64,000 nucleotides of DNA. Origin: a phage. The stretch lies in the sequence record OZ336095.1; one strand, given 5' to 3'. The notes under the pieces are model-generated. The model did not search any database, was not told the DNA's origin, and saw only the letters and a program-made list of their open reading frames with translations. Numbering within the stretch: the stretch's first letter is position 1; every line of letters begins with the position of its first letter. Position numbers and translations under genes: made by a program. Of the stretch, positions 47,460 through 55,440 are shown one piece after another.

Positions 47460-49604
47460 ATGAACAAAGTACAGATTATTAAAAAGAACGGCTCACTTGA
47501 AGAACCTGATATCAAAAAAGTTTTAGCAGCAGTCACAAAGTCAGCTAACAGAGTTGGTTATAAAGAGCTTCCACCAGATGTTACTCAAGCTCTTGAGTCA
47601 GCATTTATGAGGATTCTGGTAAAGTCCACTAAGCAGAATAATTTGCTAATTTCTGTAAATGATATTCACAGTATTGTTGAGGGTGCTTTGGCAGAAGTCA
47701 ATCACGAGATTTATGAGTCTTACTCAACATATAGAAATTACCGTAAAGAAGTTGCTCAAAATTGGGATGAGCTTTACCAGAAGACCAAAGATACACTCTT
47801 CTTAGGTGACCGAGAAAACGCTAATTTTGACAGCAGTTTAATTTCTACAAAAGGTTCAATTATTCGTGGTTATCTGACTAAAGAAATCTTTAAACAGTAC
47901 CACTTAACACCAGAGGAACTTGAAGCCATTGAAAAAGGGTTTATCTATATCCATGATTTAAGAGACCTAATTTTTGGTGGTATCAACTGTTGCCTGTTTG
48001 ACATTGGTAAAGTCCTGAAAGGTGGCTTTGAAATGTCTGGCATCGAATATTGTGAACCGAAGTCTGTACTGTCAGCCTTACAGGTTATTGGTGATGTAGT
48101 TCTTTCAGCAACTGCACAGCAATTTGGTGGTTTTACTTTAGCAGAGATTGATAAGGTACTTGTACCGTATGCTAAGAAGTCTCTACGCTATCATGCTGAG
48201 AAAGCATCATCTTATGGTATTCCTAAAGAGCATTACCACAATTATGTAATGGAGCAGTTACAAATTGAACTGACTCAAGGTTTTCAGTCACTTGAGATGA
48301 AACTAAATACCGTGCCTTGTAGCCGTGGTGATTTTGCATTCACAACTTTGACATTCGGGTTACTTGAATCAGATATGTCCAATGAAGATAACCGACTGCA
48401 ATATATGATTGCAAGTACTCTCCTAGATGTTCGTATGAATGGTCAAGGTAAGAGCAAGAAACCTGTTGTATTCCCTAAACTGGTTTATATTTATGACCAG
48501 AAGAGACATAATGAGAATATCTGCCAAGGCCACCTGTACAGTAAAGCTATAGAGTGTTGCTCTAAAGCGATGTATCCAGATTTCTTAAGTGTGTCTGGTC
48601 ATGGTGCTGTAGCAGAAGCTTTTGAGCGTTCTGGCAAGGTAATTTCGCCGATGGGTTGTAGAGCCTTCTTATCTCCATATCTTAATGAGGATGGGGAAGA
48701 GTTCTACGTTGGTCGTGCTAACATTGGTGCTGTATCTTTGAACTTACCGATGATTTATCAGTACGCCAAAGAGAATGGTTTAGATTTCTGGAAAGAGCTT
48801 GATAAGTACCTAGAGATGATTCGCAGCTTCCACAAGAAACGCTACGAAATGATTGCTAATATGCCAGCAAGTTCTAACCCTCTCGCATTCACACAGGGTG
48901 GTCTATACAAAGGGAATAAGAAACCTACTGATAAGGTTGGCTGGGATATCGTGAAGTCCTTCACAGCTTCTTTTGGGGTTACTGCGCTTGATGAATTATC
49001 TGTTCTTGCTGAAGGTAAACGACTTCATGAAGTTGGAAGTTGCAGTTTTGCATACGATGTTCTGGAATACATCAACATGAAAACTGAAGAGTTTAAAAAT
49101 GAAGATGGTTTCTTATATGCAGTCTATGGCACTCCAGCAGAATCACTTTGTGGAACTCAGCTAAAACAGTTCAGAGATATGTTTGGAGTTATCAAAGGTG
49201 TTTCTGATAAGGAATACTTTACAAACAGCTTCCATATGAATGTTGCAGCAGACATCACACCATTTGAGAAGCAGGACTTAGAAGAACCTTTCTTCCATAT
49301 CTGTAGAGGTGGCAGAATCCAGTATGTAAGGGTAGCTAATCCAGAAAACTTATCAGCACTTAAGAGTTGTATTACAAGAGGGATGTTGAAAGGTTTCTAT
49401 CAGGGACTTAACTTTGACTTAGCAATCTGTGAACATTGTGGTAACAGACCAAAGGCTGATGTTGAAGAGTGTGAGGTTTGCCATTCACATGATATCTCTG
49501 TGATTAACAGGGTGTGTGGGTATCTTGGATGGACTAAGATTAAAGGTGAATCCCGAATGAACGATGCAAAAATCGCTGAGATTCGTGATAGAGTCTCTAT
49601 GTAA
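47460..49604 (+). CDS. nrdD: anaerobic ribonucleoside-triphosphate reductase (class III)
   Basis: 714 aa; C-terminal Zn-ribbon 'CEHCGNRPKADVEECEVC' and glycyl-radical-like 'RVCGYLG'. Confidence 0.85.
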   Translation: MNKVQIIKKNGSLEEPDIKKVLAAVTKSANRVGYKELPPDVTQALESAFMRILVKSTKQNNLLISVNDIHSIVEGALAEVNHEIYESYSTYRNYRKEVAQNWDELYQKTKDTLFLGDRENANFDSSLISTKGSIIRGYLTKEIFKQYHLTPEELEAIEKGFIYIHDLRDLIFGGINCCLFDIGKVLKGGFEMSGIEYCEPKSVLSALQVIGDVVLSATAQQFGGFTLAEIDKVLVPYAKKSLRYHAEKASSYGIPKEHYHNYVMEQLQIELTQGFQSLEMKLNTVPCSRGDFAFTTLTFGLLESDMSNEDNRLQYMIASTLLDVRMNGQGKSKKPVVFPKLVYIYDQKRHNENICQGHLYSKAIECCSKAMYPDFLSVSGHGAVAEAFERSGKVISPMGCRAFLSPYLNEDGEEFYVGRANIGAVSLNLPMIYQYAKENGLDFWKELDKYLEMIRSFHKKRYEMIANMPASSNPLAFTQGGLYKGNKKPTDKVGWDIVKSFTASFGVTALDELSVLAEGKRLHEVGSCSFAYDVLEYINMKTEEFKNEDGFLYAVYGTPAESLCGTQLKQFRDMFGVIKGVSDKEYFTNSFHMNVAADITPFEKQDLEEPFFHICRGGRIQYVRVANPENLSALKSCITRGMLKGFYQGLNFDLAICEHCGNRPKADVEECEVCHSHDISVINRVCGYLGWTKIKGESRMNDAKIAEIRDRVSM

Positions 49605-49613
49605 AAACTTGAC

Positions 49614-49653
49614 AAGGTGATGTAGGTCTTGATAGGCTTACATCACCTTTTTT
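49614..49653 (+). terminator. intrinsic terminator after nrdD
   Basis: 11-bp stem AAGGTGATGTA / TACATCACCTT followed by TTTTTT. Confidence 0.6.
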
Positions 49654-51143: not shown

Positions 51144-51225
51144 TTATTCTGGCAAATGGACTAAGGTATAACTCCAATTGGTATCACTGAAGAAGAACTT
51201 CATAAGTTCTGTATTAAACTTTAAT

Positions 51226-51249
51226 GAGAGAGAGAGAGAGAGAGAGAGA
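51226..51249. repeat. (GA)12 dinucleotide microsatellite
   Basis: 24 nt of uninterrupted GAGAGA... ending 6 nt before ATG 51256. Confidence 0.9.
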
Positions 51250-51255
51250 CTAAAA

Positions 51256-51522
51256 ATGGGAATTTTAGGTAATATGAAAGCTGGATTCTTGAAGGCACTG
51301 GCAAAAGCAGCAGCAATTGTTTCTATGACTGGAAAGCAGGTCGGTGTAGATGCTTCAGCGGTTGCACAGGTTCTTACAAGCCAAATTGAACAGCAGCCTT
51401 ACATCTATGTAGGTCGTGGCAAAGGTGGTAAGAAACAAGCCCACCGTCCGTCTGGTGCAGCAGCTATTAAACGAGCAGCTAAGAAAGCTCGTAACCGTAA
51501 ACGTAATAAGAAGGCTAAATAA
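51256..51522 (+). CDS. small basic protein (Lys/Arg-rich C-terminus)
   Basis: ATG 51256 just after the GA tract (track ORF 51178 reads through the repeat as ERERERER); C-terminus 'KRAAKKARNRKRNKKAK'. Confidence 0.4.
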   Translation: MGILGNMKAGFLKALAKAAAIVSMTGKQVGVDASAVAQVLTSQIEQQPYIYVGRGKGGKKQAHRPSGAAAIKRAAKKARNRKRNKKAK

Positions 51523-51524
51523 TC

Positions 51525-51845
51525 ATGAGCAAAGTTTATAACACTCGTAAATTACAGATTTTCTTACTGTGCCAGTTTATGGCTAGAGAGCATAACTCCT
51601 ACTATTGTGGTACAGGATTCATTAGTGATAATGATGGCTCATATCTCCCATTCAAAGAGGCTGTAAAACTCTTCAATGAAGAGAAAAGCTCTGAGAAAGA
51701 TATTGAAAAGGTTAAATTAACCTATAGTAAGAAAGATAAGAAGATTATCTGCCTAGATAACTTTGTGAAAGTTACCAAAGAAACTAAAGAGTTAATGGAA
51801 GAAAGTGAAATTCCATTCACAAGAATCTTGAAAGTAGCTCAGTAA
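51525..51845 (+). CDS. hypothetical protein
   Basis: 106-aa ORF followed by terminator. Confidence 0.35.
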   Translation: MSKVYNTRKLQIFLLCQFMAREHNSYYCGTGFISDNDGSYLPFKEAVKLFNEEKSSEKDIEKVKLTYSKKDKKIICLDNFVKVTKETKELMEESEIPFTRILKVAQ

Positions 51846-51856
51846 GCAGATACTAT

Positions 51857-51887
51857 AAGGGAACTGTAAAGGTTCCCTTTTTATTTT
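51857..51887 (+). terminator. intrinsic terminator
   Basis: AAGGGAAC tgtaaag GTTCCCTT followed by TTTATTTTGG. Confidence 0.5.
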
Positions 51888-51896
51888 GGAGATAAT

Positions 51897-52412
51897 ATGT
51901 ATCTGTCAAATCTGAAACGTTCTGCTGCAATGTCAGTGTTAAGACTCAGTTTTGAGGAACGTCAAGAGTTCATTGACTCCCACCAATACGACCCTTCCAA
52001 CTCCAATCACATGATTCTCTGGAATCGTGAGAGTACTCGTGAAAGAGCATTATTTCGATATTACCCACACTATACCATAGACAACCTATATGAATGCTTT
52101 GTTGTGAAGAACACCATTACAGTACTCAATAAACTTTGCAGATACACAGGCAGTCAATCCTTCACATTAGGTCACCACAAACCTGTTACAAAAGGTGGTG
52201 AACATCACTGTGCAAACTGGTTTATCCAGACTAAACTTGATAACCAGAAGCAAGGGGATAGTCTTTTAAGTACCCCTAAGATGACCTACGAAGAGCAAGA
52301 GAAATATATCAAAAACAATATGCCAGATGTGCTTGACAACAACTATACAGATTTGGCAATATCTCTCCTGTTGAAGTTCGAGACAGTTTATAGGGCAACT
52401 TATAATGGCTAA
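51897..52412 (+). CDS. HNH-like endonuclease (putative)
   Basis: 'LGHHKPVTKGGEHHCANWFIQTKLDNQKQGD' resembles HNH core (His-His ... Asn ... Gln/His). Confidence 0.4.
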   Translation: MYLSNLKRSAAMSVLRLSFEERQEFIDSHQYDPSNSNHMILWNRESTRERALFRYYPHYTIDNLYECFVVKNTITVLNKLCRYTGSQSFTLGHHKPVTKGGEHHCANWFIQTKLDNQKQGDSLLSTPKMTYEEQEKYIKNNMPDVLDNNYTDLAISLLLKFETVYRATYNG

Positions 52413-52683
52413 AGAGAAGTGGGAGATTTTACCATTAGTCAGTGAAGGTGGTAATGGTTGTGAGATGTACATGATACGTGGTCATGTTCCAGAACCAATT
52501 GCACTTGAGATGGTAAACAACTTTACAGATGGCTCTTACAAAGACTTAGGAGAGCCAACTATAAAGCAGCAATGGGTAAAGCCTGTACCAGACAGCACAG
52601 GTAACTGTAGTGTACTTTATCACGTTGTAGACCCTGCAAAATGCAAATCTGCAATGGCAGTAACAAACGTAACTTTTGATTGA
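52405..52683 (+). CDS. hypothetical protein
   Basis: 92-aa ORF overlapping flanking genes. Confidence 0.3.
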   Translation: MAKEKWEILPLVSEGGNGCEMYMIRGHVPEPIALEMVNNFTDGSYKDLGEPTIKQQWVKPVPDSTGNCSVLYHVVDPAKCKSAMAVTNVTFD

Positions 52684-52694
52684 GAGAGAAAACT

Positions 52695-53576
52695 ATGAAA
52701 ACATCTATCCGTGTTACAGTTCATTCACCAACTAAAGGGACTCATGAAGAAGAGTTTAACATCGTCCAATTCCCTTCTGGTGAGATTGGTGGACACTTTT
52801 CGCCAGAGTTTGTTGATTTTACTGCTTATGCAGCATCATCTATCAACAATGTGATTATGATTGTAAAAGGTTATGATAAGGACACATTGTTTGCTGTGGC
52901 ACTTGCTAAAGAAGCAATTGATGATTTAGTACCTCATAAGTTTGCTATGAAGACTGCTATCTTTTACTATTTGCCAAATGCACGTTACGACCGTCACATG
53001 TTTAAAGGTGATGCAGCAGCTTTGAAAGTGTTTGCACAACAGGTTAATGCAATGGGTTTTGATGCAGTCTGTGCAGTTGACCCTCACAGCTATGTACCAG
53101 ATAACCTGTTTAACTGCTTCCAGAGTATTCCTCAAAAGGAAATTGCAGTCCACTATGCAAATGACCCACTGATTGATTACTTAGTAGCCCCAGATGCAGG
53201 TGCTGCTAAGAAGATTGCAGAGACTGCTAAAGAGGTGGATAAACCATACATCACAATGTCTAAAGTGCGTAACCTTAAGACTGGTGAAATTACTGGTATG
53301 CGAATCCTTGATGATGTTGATTTGACAGATAAAACCGTCATGATTCTGGATGATATCTGTGATGGTGGTCGAACCTTCATAGAAGCAGCGAAGCATCTTC
53401 GTGAAGCAGGTGCAAAACGTGTGGAACTTTATGTAACACATGGTATCTTCTCTAAAGATGTTGAAAACCTTCTTGACAATGGTATCGACCATATTTACAC
53501 TACAAACTCTTTAGGCGAAGCTAAAGACCGTGGCTTAACACATTACAGTCAAGTTACTGTAGCAAACCTTGATTGA
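52695..53576 (+). CDS. ribose-phosphate pyrophosphokinase-like (PRPP synthetase family)
   Basis: PRPP-binding-type motif 'VMILDDICDGGRTF'; ATG 52695 after GAGAGAGAA (track start 52680 is TTG); ~293 aa. Confidence 0.7.
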   Translation: MKTSIRVTVHSPTKGTHEEEFNIVQFPSGEIGGHFSPEFVDFTAYAASSINNVIMIVKGYDKDTLFAVALAKEAIDDLVPHKFAMKTAIFYYLPNARYDRHMFKGDAAALKVFAQQVNAMGFDAVCAVDPHSYVPDNLFNCFQSIPQKEIAVHYANDPLIDYLVAPDAGAAKKIAETAKEVDKPYITMSKVRNLKTGEITGMRILDDVDLTDKTVMILDDICDGGRTFIEAAKHLREAGAKRVELYVTHGIFSKDVENLLDNGIDHIYTTNSLGEAKDRGLTHYSQVTVANLD

Positions 53577-53585
53577 AAGTTTATA

Positions 53586-53606
53586 GGGGCTTAAAAGCCC
53601 CATTTT
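53586..53606 (+). terminator. weak hairpin terminator
   Basis: GGGGC ttaaaa GCCCC followed by ATTTTG. Confidence 0.35.
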
Positions 53607-53621
53607 GAGAGAGATTAAAAG

Positions 53622-55403
53622 ATGACTAAATCACTTTATGCAGTACCAGCAGGTTTAAACGCAGATGCTTACAAATCTGGTCATGTTTACCAGTACCCTA
53701 GTGCAACAGAATACTTGATGTTCAACCTGACACCACGTAGTGACAAATGGTTTAACAGCCCATTAGCAATTGATGGTGTAGTAGCTTTTGGTATTCAACG
53801 TTTCGTTAAAGATTACTTGATAGACCACTGGAACGCCACTTTCTTTGAACGTGATAAAAAAGAAGCCATTGATGAAATATTAGAAGTCATGAATGGTGTT
53901 CTGGGTAAAGATGCTATCGGTCGAGAGCATTGGGAAGCACTTCACGACTTAGGTTATCTACCAGTTGAAGTATACGCTGTAGAAGAAGGTACAGTTGTCC
54001 CTATGCGTGTCCCAATGATTGTCTTCCAGAACACTGTTTCAGGTTTCCATTGGGTAGCGGGGTATCTGGAAGATGCTTTCTCTGCTGAGATTTGGAAGGC
54101 TTGTACCATTGCAACTATTGCATTGCATTATAAACGCATCTGTAAGAAGTGGGCTGACCTTACTTGCGACAACGACTTACATTTACCTTATCAGTGCCAT
54201 GACTTTGCTATGCGTGGTATGTCCGGCTTTACTGATGACGCATTTAACGCTGTAGGCCACTTAACCAGCTTTAAAGGAACTGATAGCTTCCCTGCTGTGT
54301 ATACGGCTAAACGAATCTATGGACAGTCTTACCCAATCTCTGATATTGGTAGCTCTGTACCAGCCACTGAGCACTCTGTAATGTGTGCAAACATTGCTTG
54401 GGAAGGTGGTAATGAGTTGATTGAAGAAGAAAGACGCTTTAAAGGTGAGTTACAAACCTTCCGTCGTTTCTTAACAGAAACTTACCCAACTGGTATTGCA
54501 AGTATTGTTTCAGATACTTATAACTTCTGGAGAACTGTGTCAGAAATCTTACCAGCACTCCGTAAAGAAATTATGGAACGTGATGGTAAACTGGTAATTC
54601 GCCCTGACTCTGGAGACCCTGTACATATTGTCACAGGTTATAAAGCAATCCACTTAGAGTGTGCTAAAAAGGCTTATTACGAGCACCTAAGCAAGCTTGA
54701 AGCCAGCGACACAATGTTGAATGCTGTTCTGAACATGAAGCTTGAAAACATCAACTATGGTATTGCTGGATGGCTACTGTCAGAAGGCTACGAAATGGTT
54801 GTTGACAGAGAAGACTTTGAAGTTGCTGATACAGTGCTGTTGAAAAACGCTTATATGGTTGGTTCTGCAAACGTTGTAACACGTCCTGTAGCGGAGATTG
54901 ATGGAGCTATCAAGACACTGTATAACATCTTTGGGGGAACTATTAACTCTAAAGGGTTTAAGGTACTGGATGAGCACATCGGCCTTATCTATGGTGACTC
55001 TATCACGCTGGAACGTGCAAACGAAATCATGAAGCGTCTGTATGAAATGGGTTTTGCAAGCTCTAACGTAGTATTTGGTGTAGGCTCTTACACTTACCAG
55101 TACATGACTCGTGACACCTTTGCATTTGCTGTCAAAGCAACTCTTGCAAGCATTGGTGGTAAAGAGATTATGCTTGCAAAAGACCCTAAAACAGATAGTG
55201 GTGTTAAGAAATCTGCCTTTGGTGGTGTAGCACCTATGTGGGATGGTGAAAATCTGAAAGCTGTAGATGGCTATGGGTTCCAGAGCTTTGCAGATGCACT
55301 TGAACACCCAGCTTGTGCTTTACGTCTAGTCTTTAGTGACTCTGAGCAGTTCGGCTACACAACTCTTGGTGATATTCGAAATAATATTGACAAGCAGCTT
55401 TAA
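53622..55403 (+). CDS. nicotinamide phosphoribosyltransferase-like (NAMPT/NadV family)
   Basis: 593 aa; N-terminal 'NADAYKSGHVYQYP' matches the NAMPT 'D.YK..H..QYP' signature. Confidence 0.8.
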   Translation: MTKSLYAVPAGLNADAYKSGHVYQYPSATEYLMFNLTPRSDKWFNSPLAIDGVVAFGIQRFVKDYLIDHWNATFFERDKKEAIDEILEVMNGVLGKDAIGREHWEALHDLGYLPVEVYAVEEGTVVPMRVPMIVFQNTVSGFHWVAGYLEDAFSAEIWKACTIATIALHYKRICKKWADLTCDNDLHLPYQCHDFAMRGMSGFTDDAFNAVGHLTSFKGTDSFPAVYTAKRIYGQSYPISDIGSSVPATEHSVMCANIAWEGGNELIEEERRFKGELQTFRRFLTETYPTGIASIVSDTYNFWRTVSEILPALRKEIMERDGKLVIRPDSGDPVHIVTGYKAIHLECAKKAYYEHLSKLEASDTMLNAVLNMKLENINYGIAGWLLSEGYEMVVDREDFEVADTVLLKNAYMVGSANVVTRPVAEIDGAIKTLYNIFGGTINSKGFKVLDEHIGLIYGDSITLERANEIMKRLYEMGFASSNVVFGVGSYTYQYMTRDTFAFAVKATLASIGGKEIMLAKDPKTDSGVKKSAFGGVAPMWDGENLKAVDGYGFQSFADALEHPACALRLVFSDSEQFGYTTLGDIRNNIDKQL

Positions 55404-55417
55404 AAGTATATGATAAG

Positions 55418-55440
55418 AGGCTCCTACGGGAGCCTTTTTA
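55418..55440 (+). terminator. intrinsic terminator (tetraloop type)
   Basis: AGGCTCC tacg GGAGCCT followed by TTTTT. Confidence 0.6.

What the first reader, a model, noticed from the sequence alone, without database searches (positions are those of the whole stretch)
52695..55403. PRPP-synthetase-like plus NAMPT-like gene pair: candidate NAD+ reconstitution anti-defence module
The two adjacent genes encode a Prs-family enzyme (PRPP-binding motif VMILDDICDGGRTF) and a NAMPT/NadV-family enzyme (D.YK..H..QYP signature). As I recall, exactly this pairing was recently shown in phages to be a two-step NAD+ reconstitution pathway (ADP-ribose pyrophosphate synthetase plus nicotinamide ADPR transferase) that rebuilds NAD+ from ADP-ribose and nicotinamide. 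That counters NAD-depleting defences such as Thoeris, DSR, SEFIR and some CBASS or Avs effectors. By sequence alone I cannot tell this from a canonical Prs + NadV salvage pair.
Basis: partly seen in the sequence, partly recalled or inferred. Interest (0 to 1): 0.7.

Follow-up and report, generated by a model that had tools for sequence, protein, structure and literature searches.

The report
Known phage NAD+ rebuilding gene pair

Summary
In detail: two co-directional genes, 52695..53576 (293 aa, Prs-like) and 53622..55403 (593 aa, NAMPT-like), with both quoted motifs present. The window is a Felixounavirus genome. The pair is the syntenic ortholog of genes 79-80 of phage Bas63 (JohannRWettstein, same genus), the operon in which NAD+ reconstitution pathway 1 (NARP1: Adps + Namat) was discovered and deleted. 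The NAMPT-like protein is 98% identical to Bas63 gp80 and carries the published Namat-specific adenine clamp (GSYTYQYMTRD; K42-W43), which canonical Nampt lacks. The Prs-like protein is 80% identical to Bas63 gp79, and every published Adps catalytic residue is identical. Its differences sit in an old recombinant N-terminal allele under purifying selection (dN/dS 0.13). That exact protein sequence is already listed as a Namat-associated Adps/Prs-family homolog in the discovery paper's supplementary table. On NCBI's curated Prs models it scores like characterised Adps enzymes, not like E. coli Prs. No Macro-domain phosphatase or RyR-domain accessory is adjacent, so this is the minimal two-gene form. 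Verdict: interpretation supported; already known; low interest. Enzyme activity of this allele is inferred, not assayed.

The parts
52695..53576 (+). adps: ADP-ribose pyrophosphate synthetase (Prs-like), 293 aa
   Evidence: ORF. 80% identical to Bas63 gp79. 100% identical to the vB_EcoM-Ro111lw protein that Osterman Table S1 lists in its Prs/Adps-family sheet with a Namat within 10 genes. Scores like characterised Adps on NCBIfam Prs models, not like E. coli Prs.
53262..53264 (+). Adps catalytic lysine K190 (equivalent to ICP1 K185 and SPbetaL1 K162)
   Evidence: Alignment mapping. K185A and K162A abolish activity in the characterised enzymes.
53337..53378 (+). Adps PP-loop region VMILDDICDGGRTF (D219 D220 I221 C222 D223 ... 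F228)
   Evidence: Sequence. [quoted passage not shown] Identical in Bas63 gp79.
52695..53250 (+). Divergent N-terminal allele of adps (62-80% nt identity to Bas63, against about 95% in the flanks)
   Evidence: Sliding-window identity. For codons 1-180, dS is 1.63 and dN/dS is 0.13. FelixO1's own Adps is a mosaic of the two alleles.
53586..53601 (+). Intergenic stem-loop GGGGCT-TAAA-AGCCCC followed by ATTTTG, between adps and namat
   Evidence: RNA fold of the 45-nt spacer: -12.6 kcal/mol, z = -2.9; that MFE also includes a second, weaker downstream helix. Conserved in Bas63 with one loop change. Annotated as a predicted rho-independent terminator in phage AYO145A. In relatives such as VpaE1 an HNH homing endonuclease gene occupies this spacer.
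53622..55403 (+). namat: nicotinamide ADP-ribose transferase (NAMPT-like), 593 aa
   Evidence: ORF. 98% identical (583/593) to Bas63 gp80. Scores 431 bits to the SPbetaL1 Namat crystal structure 9w5w/9w5x, against 179 for Xanthomonas Nampt and 141 for human NAMPT.
53745..53750 (+). Namat selectivity-clamp loop residues K42-W43
   Evidence: Aligns to SPbetaL1 R40-V41. This is the Bas63-type arrangement, where Lys sits at the third position and the next residue stacks on adenine.
55083..55115 (+). Namat selectivity-clamp helix motif GSYTYQYMTRD (aa 488-498)
   Evidence: [quoted passage not shown] SPbetaL1 has GSFTYQYNTRD and Xanthomonas Nampt has GGALLQKVDRD.
54639..54902 (+). Lineage-specific insertion in Namat (about aa 340-427), absent from SPbetaL1, FADO and ICP1 Namat
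   Evidence: Alignment gaps. tblastn of the segment finds it only in 254 Ounavirinae phage records. Function unknown.
55415..55438 (+). Terminator-like hairpin with T-run immediately after the namat stop codon
   Evidence: Terminator scan. RNA fold -16.6 kcal/mol, z = -3.3. Identical in Bas63.
51828..51879 (+). Upstream promoter-like plus hairpin composite that marks the start of the four-gene block 51897-55403
   Evidence: The same layout recurs at 55387-55438.

Best explanation
The pair is NARP1, NAD+ reconstitution pathway 1, in its minimal two-gene form. When a host defence NADase (SIR2, TIR or SEFIR type) cleaves NAD+ into ADP-ribose and nicotinamide, the first enzyme (Adps, 52695-53576) transfers the beta-gamma pyrophosphate of ATP onto the distal ribose of ADP-ribose, making ADPR-pyrophosphate. 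The second enzyme (Namat, 53622-55403) replaces that pyrophosphate with nicotinamide and regenerates NAD+ directly. This lets the phage replicate despite NAD+ depletion. Shown here: gene structure, synteny and orthology with the Bas63 system, conservation of all published catalytic and specificity residues, and purifying selection. Taken from the literature on orthologs and homologs: the chemistry and the anti-defence phenotype. Inferred: that this particular allele pair has the same activity.
For: (1) The window is a Felixounavirus, and the pair is collinear with Bas63 genes 79-80, with NrdG upstream and rIIA/rIIB downstream. (2) Namat is 98% identical to Bas63 gp80 and Adps is 80% identical to gp79. 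(3) In Bas63, deleting 79-80 sensitises the phage to SIR2-HerA. ADPR-PP appears only with wild-type phage plus the defence. The effect is independent of host pncC and nadR. An independent study found that single deletions of g79 or g80 each reduce plating 1e4-1e6 fold on Sir2-HerA cells, and complementation restores it. (4) The Namat-specific clamp is present: GSYTYQYMTRD and K42-W43. Catalytic residues D15, Y17, F195, R198, D221, H251, R327 and D329 are conserved and identical to Bas63. (5) Adps residues R97, H131, D167, K190, D219, D220 and the PP loop are conserved and identical to Bas63, and the C-terminal alpha11-alpha12 module is absent. (6) On NCBIfam Prs models the window protein scores 93.5 (NF002320) and 127 (TIGR01251). 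Characterised Adps score 64-80 and 96-106. E. coli Prs scores 533 and 423. (7) The exact Adps sequence is in Osterman Table S1 with 'Namat within 10 genes: Yes'. (8) dN/dS is 0.13 for the Adps N-terminus, 0.065 for its C-terminus and 0.053 for Namat.
Against: No enzyme from any Felixounavirus has been assayed in vitro. The Bas63 protein did not purify, so the biochemistry comes from the SPbetaL1, ICP1 and DyoEdafos homologs, which share only 35-43% identity with the window proteins over the aligned regions. The Adps N-terminal domain differs from the genetically tested Bas63 allele by about 31% of residues. Pairwise scores do not cleanly separate Adps from Prs: FADO Adps scores 68 bits and E. 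coli Prs 66. C-terminal truncation and the TGE hairpin motif are also seen in the best PDB hit, a 291-aa Prs, and the next-best PDB Prs chains are similarly short at 284-287 aa. The Felixounavirus Namat carries an uncharacterised insertion of about 80 aa.
Confidence: 0.93

Rival explanations
1. A canonical salvage pair. The first enzyme is a true PRPP synthetase and the second a true nicotinamide phosphoribosyltransferase (NadV), making NMN that host NadR or PncC must convert into NAD+. This would be a general NAD+ boost, not reconstitution from ADP-ribose.
For: This is what every database annotation says. Pfam, PHROG and NCBIfam name the families that way. SPbetaL1 Namat can make NMN from PRPP in vitro when ADPR-PP is absent.
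Against: Bas63 still overcame SIR2-HerA in a pncC nadR double mutant, and ADPR-PP was detected in vivo. In the paper's Results text (its figure legend instead names ribose-5-phosphate), purified SPbetaL1 Adps incubated with PRPP and ATP gave no measurable product, but it made ADPR-PP from ADPR. With both substrates present, Namat made only NAD+. The window Namat has the adenine clamp that Nampt lacks. The window Adps fails every specific Prs model cutoff that E. coli Prs passes.
Confidence: 0.03
2. NARP1 with a second job. Besides reconstitution, the pair (or Namat alone, using host PRPP) also supports phage metabolism or counters defences that do not simply release ADPR plus nicotinamide.
For: Namat keeps about half of human Nampt's PRPP-dependent activity in vitro. 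In Bas63, g79 and g80 also counter the Ec86 retron and hhe. Effect sizes differ between the two genes on Ec86, about 10-fold for g79 and about 1000-fold for g80. That asymmetry hints at an Adps-independent contribution from Namat.
Against: NARP1 is reported not to build NAD+ unless a depleting system is active, and it failed against non-depleting type II Thoeris. From my own recollection, not checked here, the Ec86 effector has since been described as an NADase. If so, Ec86 would be an ordinary NARP1 target.
Confidence: 0.15
3. The adps gene in this phage is a drifting or functionally altered allele, because its N-terminal half is strongly diverged from the tested Bas63 gene. If so, the pair no longer works as NARP1.
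For: Nucleotide identity drops to 62-80% across 52650-53250, against about 95% in the flanks. There are 60 amino-acid differences, almost all in residues 1-180.
Against: The frame is intact. dN/dS is 0.13 with saturated synonymous sites (dS 1.63), so this is an old allele under purifying selection. All functional residues and the RF-loop segment LPNARYDRHMFKGDAAALKVFA are identical in both alleles. About 156 sequenced phages carry the window-type allele at 90% identity or more.
Confidence: 0.02

Closest known systems
NARP1 of Escherichia phage JohannRWettstein (Bas63), genes bas63_0079 (Adps) and bas63_0080 (Namat); Osterman et al., bioRxiv 10.1101/2024.02.11.579819
   Same: Same genus, same genomic position, same gene order and sizes (293 and 593 aa). 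Same intergenic hairpin and downstream terminator. Namat is 98% identical and Adps 80% identical. All published functional residues are identical.
   Different: The Adps N-terminal domain (aa 1-180) is a different, old allele. There are ten conservative substitutions in Namat, none at catalytic or clamp positions.
NARP1 of Bacillus phage SPbetaL1 (biochemically characterised Adps and Namat; Namat crystal structures 9w5w/9w5x)
   Same: Same two-gene order. The Namat clamp motif and catalytic residues are conserved, as are the Adps catalytic lysine and DD motif.
   Different: Only about 43% (Namat, over the N-terminal ~356 residues that BLASTP aligns) and 36% (Adps, over 191 aligned residues) identity. 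SPbetaL1 Namat lacks the ~80-aa and ~15-aa insertions. Its clamp loop uses Arg40 where this one uses Lys-Trp. Its PP loop is DDLSSFGGTF where this one is DDICDGGRTF.
Adps of Vibrio phage ICP1 (apo crystal structure plus cryo-EM structures with ADPR/ATP and ADPR-PP/AMP; Liu et al., NAR 2026, PMC13586617)
   Same: R87, H121, D161, K185, D212 and D213 and the DDICDG start of the PP loop are conserved. The C-terminal alpha11-alpha12 module is absent.
   Different: About 40% identity over the C-terminal two thirds. ICP1 F92 and F223 are not conserved. The N-terminal region aligns poorly.
NARP1-AP (Adps + Macro-domain phosphatase Adpp + Namat; Vibrio phage Gary) and RyDEP-associated NARP1 (mycobacteriophage DyoEdafos)
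   Same: Same core pair of enzymes.
   Different: No Macro or RyR domain was found in the five ORFs upstream or the three ORFs downstream. This phage is therefore predicted to remain sensitive to aRES-type defence, which yields ADPR-1''-phosphate.
NARP2 (NadV + Nmnat/Nudix, phage KVP40) and NARP3 (PnuC + NadR, phage Bas30)
   Same: Same biological purpose: restoring NAD+ under immune depletion.
   Different: Different enzymes and substrates: PRPP and NMN for NARP2, nicotinamide riboside for NARP3. No Nmnat, PnuC or NadR partner lies next to this pair.
Canonical Prs (E. coli b1207) and canonical Nampt (human, Xanthomonas)
   Same: Same folds and same core catalytic residues.
   Different: The window Adps scores 93.5 bits on the Prs model NF002320, against 533 for E. 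coli Prs, and lacks the C-terminal module. The window Namat has an aromatic adenine clamp where Nampt has GGALLQKVDRD.

Membership tests
Namat (nicotinamide ADP-ribose transferase) | NAMPT-family fold with the conserved catalytic core (SPbetaL1 D13, Y15, F189, R192, D215, catalytic His, R306, D308) | tested here: met
   Pfam NAPRTase at 1e-34 plus NAMPT_N. The window equivalents D15, Y17, F195, R198, D221, H251, R327 and D329 are all present.
Namat (nicotinamide ADP-ribose transferase) | [quoted passage not shown] 2026) | tested here: met
   GSYTYQYMTRD at aa 488-498, with Y490 and Y494 aromatic. Phi3 is Met where Asn or Val is more usual, exactly as in Bas63.
Namat (nicotinamide ADP-ribose transferase) | Selectivity-clamp loop with Arg, Lys or Tyr at the third position and a stacking residue | tested here: met
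   K42-W43 aligns to SPbetaL1 R40-V41. This is the Bas63-type arrangement described in the paper.
Namat (nicotinamide ADP-ribose transferase) | Closer to characterised Namat than to canonical Nampt | tested here: met
   431 bits to SPbetaL1 Namat, against 179 (Xanthomonas Nampt) and 141 (human NAMPT). 98% identity to Bas63 gp80.
Namat (nicotinamide ADP-ribose transferase) | Prefers ADPR-PP over PRPP and forms NAD+ directly | not testable with these tools
   Requires an enzyme assay. Shown only for the SPbetaL1, Paenibacillus and DyoEdafos homologs.
Adps (ADPR-pyrophosphate synthetase) | PRPS-like two-domain fold with conserved acceptor and catalytic residues (ICP1 R87, H121, D161, K185, D212, D213) | tested here: met
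   Pfam and NCBIfam hits. Window R97, H131, D167, K190, D219 and D220 are present. These residues are also shared with Prs, so they show competence, not specificity.
Adps (ADPR-pyrophosphate synthetase) | Absence of the C-terminal alpha11-alpha12 module, called a defining signature by Liu et al. | tested here: met
   The protein ends at ...QVTVANLD, where E. coli Prs continues with [22 protein letters not shown]. Caveat: the best-matching PDB Prs chains are similarly short at 284-291 aa, so this feature is not exclusive to Adps.
Adps (ADPR-pyrophosphate synthetase) | Membership of the phage Adps clade, separate from prokaryotic Prs (Osterman Fig. 3C) | tested here: inconclusive
   I built no tree. 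Indirect support is strong. The protein is 80% identical to Bas63 gp79, a query sequence of the published analysis. Its exact sequence is in Table S1. Its NCBIfam score profile matches characterised Adps and not E. coli Prs. However, pairwise BLAST does not separate FADO Adps (68 bits) from E. coli Prs (66 bits).
Adps (ADPR-pyrophosphate synthetase) | Encoded next to a Namat gene (true for 97% of the clade) | tested here: met
   The namat gene starts 45 nt downstream on the same strand.
Adps (ADPR-pyrophosphate synthetase) | Pyrophosphorylates ADP-ribose and not ribose-5-phosphate | not testable with these tools
   Requires an enzyme assay. In vivo ADPR-PP production depends on the Bas63 79-80 operon. 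In vitro activity has been shown for SPbetaL1, ICP1 and DyoEdafos.
NARP1-AP (extended pathway with ADPR-1''-phosphate phosphatase) | Macro-domain phosphatase (Adpp) within two genes of the pair | tested here: not met
   A Pfam scan of the flanking ORFs at E up to 0.1 found no Macro domain (PF01661, PF14519 or PF20016).
Canonical ribose-phosphate diphosphokinase (Prs) | Passes a curated Prs equivalog or specific subfamily model | tested here: not met
   Only the broad TIGR01251 cutoff is passed (127 bits against 113). NF002320 gives 93.5 against a cutoff of 297, and all equivalog models fall far below their cutoffs. E. coli Prs scores 533 on NF002320.

The most novel reading that the evidence does not exclude
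One of two lineage features could give Felixounavirus NARP1 a property the characterised systems lack, such as escape from a host factor that senses or inhibits NARP1, different regulation, or use of an ADPR derivative. The first feature is the old, recombining two-allele polymorphism in the Adps N-terminal domain, which forms the hexamer core. The second is the Ounavirinae-only insertion of about 80 aa in Namat, which the papers read here do not describe. Nothing here tests either idea. Purifying selection on both alleles and the working Bas63 system argue only that both are functional.
Probability: 0.07. Interest if true: 0.45.

Novelty: already known. Interest (0 to 1): 0.1.

Why it matters
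It matters mainly as annotation. Public records of more than 250 related phages still label these genes "ribose-phosphate pyrophosphokinase" and "nicotinamide/nicotinate phosphoribosyltransferase". That labelling hides an experimentally established anti-defence system. For phage therapy or host-range prediction, the practical reading has three parts:

- This phage should resist defences that cleave NAD+ into ADP-ribose and nicotinamide, such as SIR2-HerA, type I Thoeris, DSR1/2 and SEFIR.
- It should not resist aRES-type defence, because it lacks the accessory phosphatase.
- The finding adds no new biology beyond the 2024-2026 papers.

Tried and rejected
- **Bas63 accession guess.** I guessed MZ501111, which turned out to be Bas51, a Vequintavirus. 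The correct accession, MZ501086, came from the PhageMaP paper.
- **PDB search for an Adps structure.** Nothing closer than a 291-aa ribose-phosphate pyrophosphokinase chain, 4twb, at 73 bits. The ICP1 Adps structures are evidently not in the PDB copy, so no structure-based comparison of Adps was possible.
- **Pairwise BLASTP as an Adps-versus-Prs discriminator.** This did not work, because the clade is too divergent: FADO Adps scores 68 bits and E. coli Prs 66. I used a benchmark against curated Prs models instead.
- **C-terminal truncation and the K-x-R-x-x-x-TGE hairpin as Adps-specific signatures.** I rejected both as exclusive markers, because the best-matching short PDB Prs (4twb, 291 aa) shares them.
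- **AlphaFold2 single-sequence model of Namat, to characterise the insertion.** The model failed (mean pLDDT 33, pTM 0.20), so it is uninformative, and I ran no fold search.
- **Search for accessory genes.** Pfam, PHROG and PADLOC scans of the neighbours found only unknown-function families. The weak ShosT and PsyrT hits to Adps reflect the shared PRTase fold and nothing more.
- **NARP2 and NARP3.** I considered and rejected both, because their partner genes (Nmnat/Nudix; PnuC/NadR) are absent from the neighbourhood.
Full report
**Observation**

ORF listing gives a Prs-like ORF at 52680..53576. Its ATG at 52695 follows a GAGAGAGA run and matches the start annotated in Bas63, giving 293 aa. A NAMPT-like ORF lies at 53622..55403 (593 aa) on the same strand, 45 nt downstream.

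Both quoted motifs are present: VMILDDICDGGRTF at aa 215-228 of the first protein, and DAYKSGHVYQYP at aa 15-26 of the second. Family matches are far beyond chance:
- Pfam Pribosyltran/Pribosyl_synth and NAPRTase/NAMPT_N.
- PHROG 619 at 3e-98 and PHROG 448 at 6e-202.
- NCBIfam TIGR01251 and NF006629.

**Where the window comes from**

Megablast of the region finds 256-258 phage records. Essentially all are FelixO1-like phages of Escherichia, Salmonella, Shigella and Citrobacter, and the best is 98.3% identical (phage heid). The window is therefore a Felixounavirus genome. Every annotated record calls the genes ribose-phosphate pyrophosphokinase and nicotinamide or nicotinate phosphoribosyltransferase.

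**Link to the characterised system**

The NARP1 discovery paper (Osterman et al., bioRxiv 10.1101/2024.02.11.579819) found the pathway in genes 79-80 of BASEL phage Bas63 (JohannRWettstein), which is itself a Felixounavirus. I fetched Bas63 (MZ501086; accession). The neighbourhood is collinear with the window: NrdG upstream, then five small ORFs, genes 79 and 80, then three small ORFs and rIIA/rIIB.
- The window NAMPT-like protein is 583/593 (98%) identical to gp80.
- The Prs-like protein is 233/293 (80%) identical to gp79.

**What is established for the orthologs**

- Deleting 79-80 from Bas63 sensitises it to SIR2-HerA and abolishes NAD+ recovery.
- The rescue does not need host pncC or nadR.
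- ADPR-pyrophosphate (m/z 720.01) appears only with wild-type phage plus the defence.
- An independent knockout screen found that single deletions of g79 or g80 each lower plating on Sir2-HerA cells by 1e4-1e6, and complementation restores it. The same genes give weaker protection against the Ec86 retron and hhe.

The Bas63 proteins did not purify, so the in vitro chemistry comes from homologs:
- In the Results text (the Figure 2D legend instead names ribose-5-phosphate), SPbetaL1 Adps incubated with PRPP and ATP gave no measurable product, but it makes ADPR-PP from ADPR and ATP.
- SPbetaL1 Namat makes NAD+ from ADPR-PP and nicotinamide, and makes only NAD+ when PRPP is also present.
- Further structures and assays exist for SPbetaL1 Namat, ICP1 Adps and the DyoEdafos enzymes.

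**Test of the Namat assignment**

Lan et al. (PMC12774641) define a Namat-only selectivity clamp with two elements. [quoted passage not shown] The other is a loop contributing an Arg, or a Lys/Tyr followed by a stacking residue.
- The window protein has GSYTYQYMTRD (aa 488-498) and K42-W43, both identical to Bas63.
- SPbetaL1 Namat has GSFTYQYNTRD. Canonical Xanthomonas Nampt has GGALLQKVDRD.
- All catalytic-core residues map to identical residues.
- Against the PDB the protein scores 431 bits to 9w5w/9w5x, against 179 for Xanthomonas Nampt and 141 for human NAMPT. I confirmed that 9w5w/9w5x is SPbetaL1 Namat by a 100% tblastn match.

**Test of the Adps assignment**

This side is harder, because the clade is very divergent. 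Pairwise BLASTP gives 116 bits to ICP1 Adps and 101 to SPbetaL1 Adps. It gives only 68 to FADO Adps, which is no better than the 66 bits to E. coli Prs. Four lines of evidence still support the assignment.

1. Every residue that Liu et al. (PMC13586617) implicate is conserved and identical to Bas63 gp79. These are R87, H121, D161, the essential K185 (SPbetaL1 K162), D212, D213 and the start of the PP loop. Their window equivalents are R97, H131, D167, K190, D219, D220 and the DDICDG motif.
2. The C-terminal alpha11-alpha12 module is missing. The paper calls this a defining signature.
3. On NCBI's curated Prs models the window protein groups with the Adps enzymes on the specific model NF002320 and sits far below E. 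coli Prs on both.

| Protein | NF002320 (cutoff 297) | TIGR01251 (cutoff 113) |
|---|---|---|
| E. coli Prs | 533 | 423 |
| ICP1, SPbetaL1 and FADO Adps | 64-80 | 96-106 |
| Bas63 gp79 | 101 | 138 |
| Window protein | 93.5 | 127 |

4. The exact window sequence is 100% identical to the protein of phage vB_EcoM-Ro111lw. It appears in Osterman's Supplementary Table 1 with "Namat within 10 genes: Yes".

One caveat applies. The shared catalytic residues are common to Prs as well. The best-matching PDB Prs (4twb, 291 aa) is also truncated and shares the TGE hairpin motif, and the next-best PDB Prs chains are similarly short at 284-287 aa. The sequence features alone are therefore not exclusive to Adps. 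I built no tree, so I mark clade membership as indirectly supported.

**The divergent Adps N-terminus**

A sliding comparison with Bas63 shows about 95% nucleotide identity across the region, except for a sharply bounded patch at 52650-53250, where identity is 62-80%. There, dS is saturated (1.63) while dN/dS is 0.13. For comparison, dN/dS is 0.065 for the C-terminal part and 0.053 for Namat.

This is an old allele moved by recombination and kept under purifying selection. It is not decay.
- FelixO1's own Adps is a mosaic of the two allele types.
- The identity distribution of phage hits is roughly two-class: about 156 records at 90% or above and about 97 at 60-90%.
- The RF-loop segment LPNARYDRHMFKGDAAALKVFA and the FPSGE motif are identical in both alleles.

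**Anatomy around the pair**

- The 45-nt spacer folds into a GGGGCT/AGCCCC stem-loop followed by ATTTTG. The spacer's fold energy is -12.6 kcal/mol with z = -2.9, and that minimum-energy fold also includes a second, weaker downstream helix.
- The stem-loop is conserved in Bas63 and annotated as a predicted terminator in phage AYO145A.
- The same 10-mer, TTGAGAGAGA, precedes both start codons.
- A stronger hairpin with a T-run (55415-55438, -16.6 kcal/mol) follows the namat stop codon.
- Composites of a promoter-like element, a hairpin and a T-run occur at 51828-51879 and at 55387-55438. They are the only two in the window that meet my criteria. They bracket a four-gene block: the gp77 ortholog, the gp78 ortholog, adps and namat. 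These signals are consensus matches, not demonstrated sites.

**Which NARP variant**

- No Macro-domain phosphatase (NARP1-AP) or RyR-domain glycosidase (RyDEP) is present among the neighbours.
- No NARP2 or NARP3 partner gene is nearby.
- This is the minimal two-gene NARP1. By the published logic it should not overcome aRES, which leaves ADPR-1''-phosphate.

**Difference from the structurally characterised Namat**

The Felixounavirus protein is about 100 aa longer. It has an insertion of about 80 aa (roughly aa 340-427) and one of about 15 aa (roughly aa 258-274). The large insertion occurs only in the 254 Ounavirinae records, falling to 41-50% identity in the more distant genera. The Namat structure paper does not discuss it. 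A single-sequence AlphaFold2 model failed (pLDDT 33), so I cannot say what the insertion does.

**Verdict**

The pair is NARP1 (Adps + Namat), a same-genus ortholog of the type system. Its exact Adps sequence is already catalogued in the discovery paper.

The mechanism for this allele is inferred from orthology and residue conservation, not assayed. Confidence is 0.93. Novelty is "already known" and interest is low. The only loose ends are the unexplained Namat insertion and the two-allele Adps N-terminal domain.

Noticed in passing
window 51897-52412 (+): The 171-aa ORF two genes upstream of adps is 98% identical to Bas63 gp77. The PhageMaP study reports gp77 as a counter to the Ec67 retron and describes it as having a GIY-YIG domain. 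My Pfam scan found neither GIY-YIG nor HNH. By eye, the segment GHHKPVTKGGEHHCANWFIQTKLDN looks more like an HNH/His-Me finger. With rIIA/rIIB downstream reported as qatABCD counters, this stretch resembles an anti-defence neighbourhood.
   Followed up: partly
window 54639-54902 (Namat aa ~340-427): An insertion of about 80 aa in Namat, relative to SPbetaL1, FADO and ICP1 Namat. It is found only in 254 Ounavirinae phage records and diverges quickly, to 41-50% identity in distant genera. The Namat structure paper does not mention it. A single-sequence structure prediction was uninformative.
   Followed up: partly
window 51828-51879 and 55387-55438 (+): Two near-identical composite signals: -35 (TTGAAA/TTGACA), 16-17 nt, -10 (TACTAT/TATGAT), then immediately a GC-rich hairpin with a T-run, then GGAGA and ATG. 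They exactly bracket the four-gene block that contains NARP1, and they are the only two such composites my scan found in the 64 kb. The layout suggests that transcripts from upstream terminate at the hairpin, while transcripts from the overlapping promoter start inside it and read on. This is untested.
   Followed up: partly
window 53577-53621; L007 (phage VpaE1) 1198-1711: In many relatives, including VpaE1, Mushroom, skuden and Si3, a free-standing HNH homing endonuclease gene of about 490 nt occupies the adps-namat spacer. The window has the empty site with the conserved hairpin.
   Followed up: partly
window ~51150-51300: A 173-nt indel relative to Bas63 lies in the region between NrdG and the small ORFs (the window ORF 51178-51522 against Bas63 genes 74/75). 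A 38-nt gap lies near 49500-49650.
   Followed up: no
PDB entry 9ke8/9keo (not in the window): A 495-aa chain deposited as 'nicotinamide phosphoribosyltransferase' scores 351 bits to the window Namat. Its clamp motif, GAQTYQRNTRD, is intermediate, with no aromatic residue at positions 3 or 7. I did not identify its source. It may be a phage Nampt of the NARP2 type.
   Followed up: no
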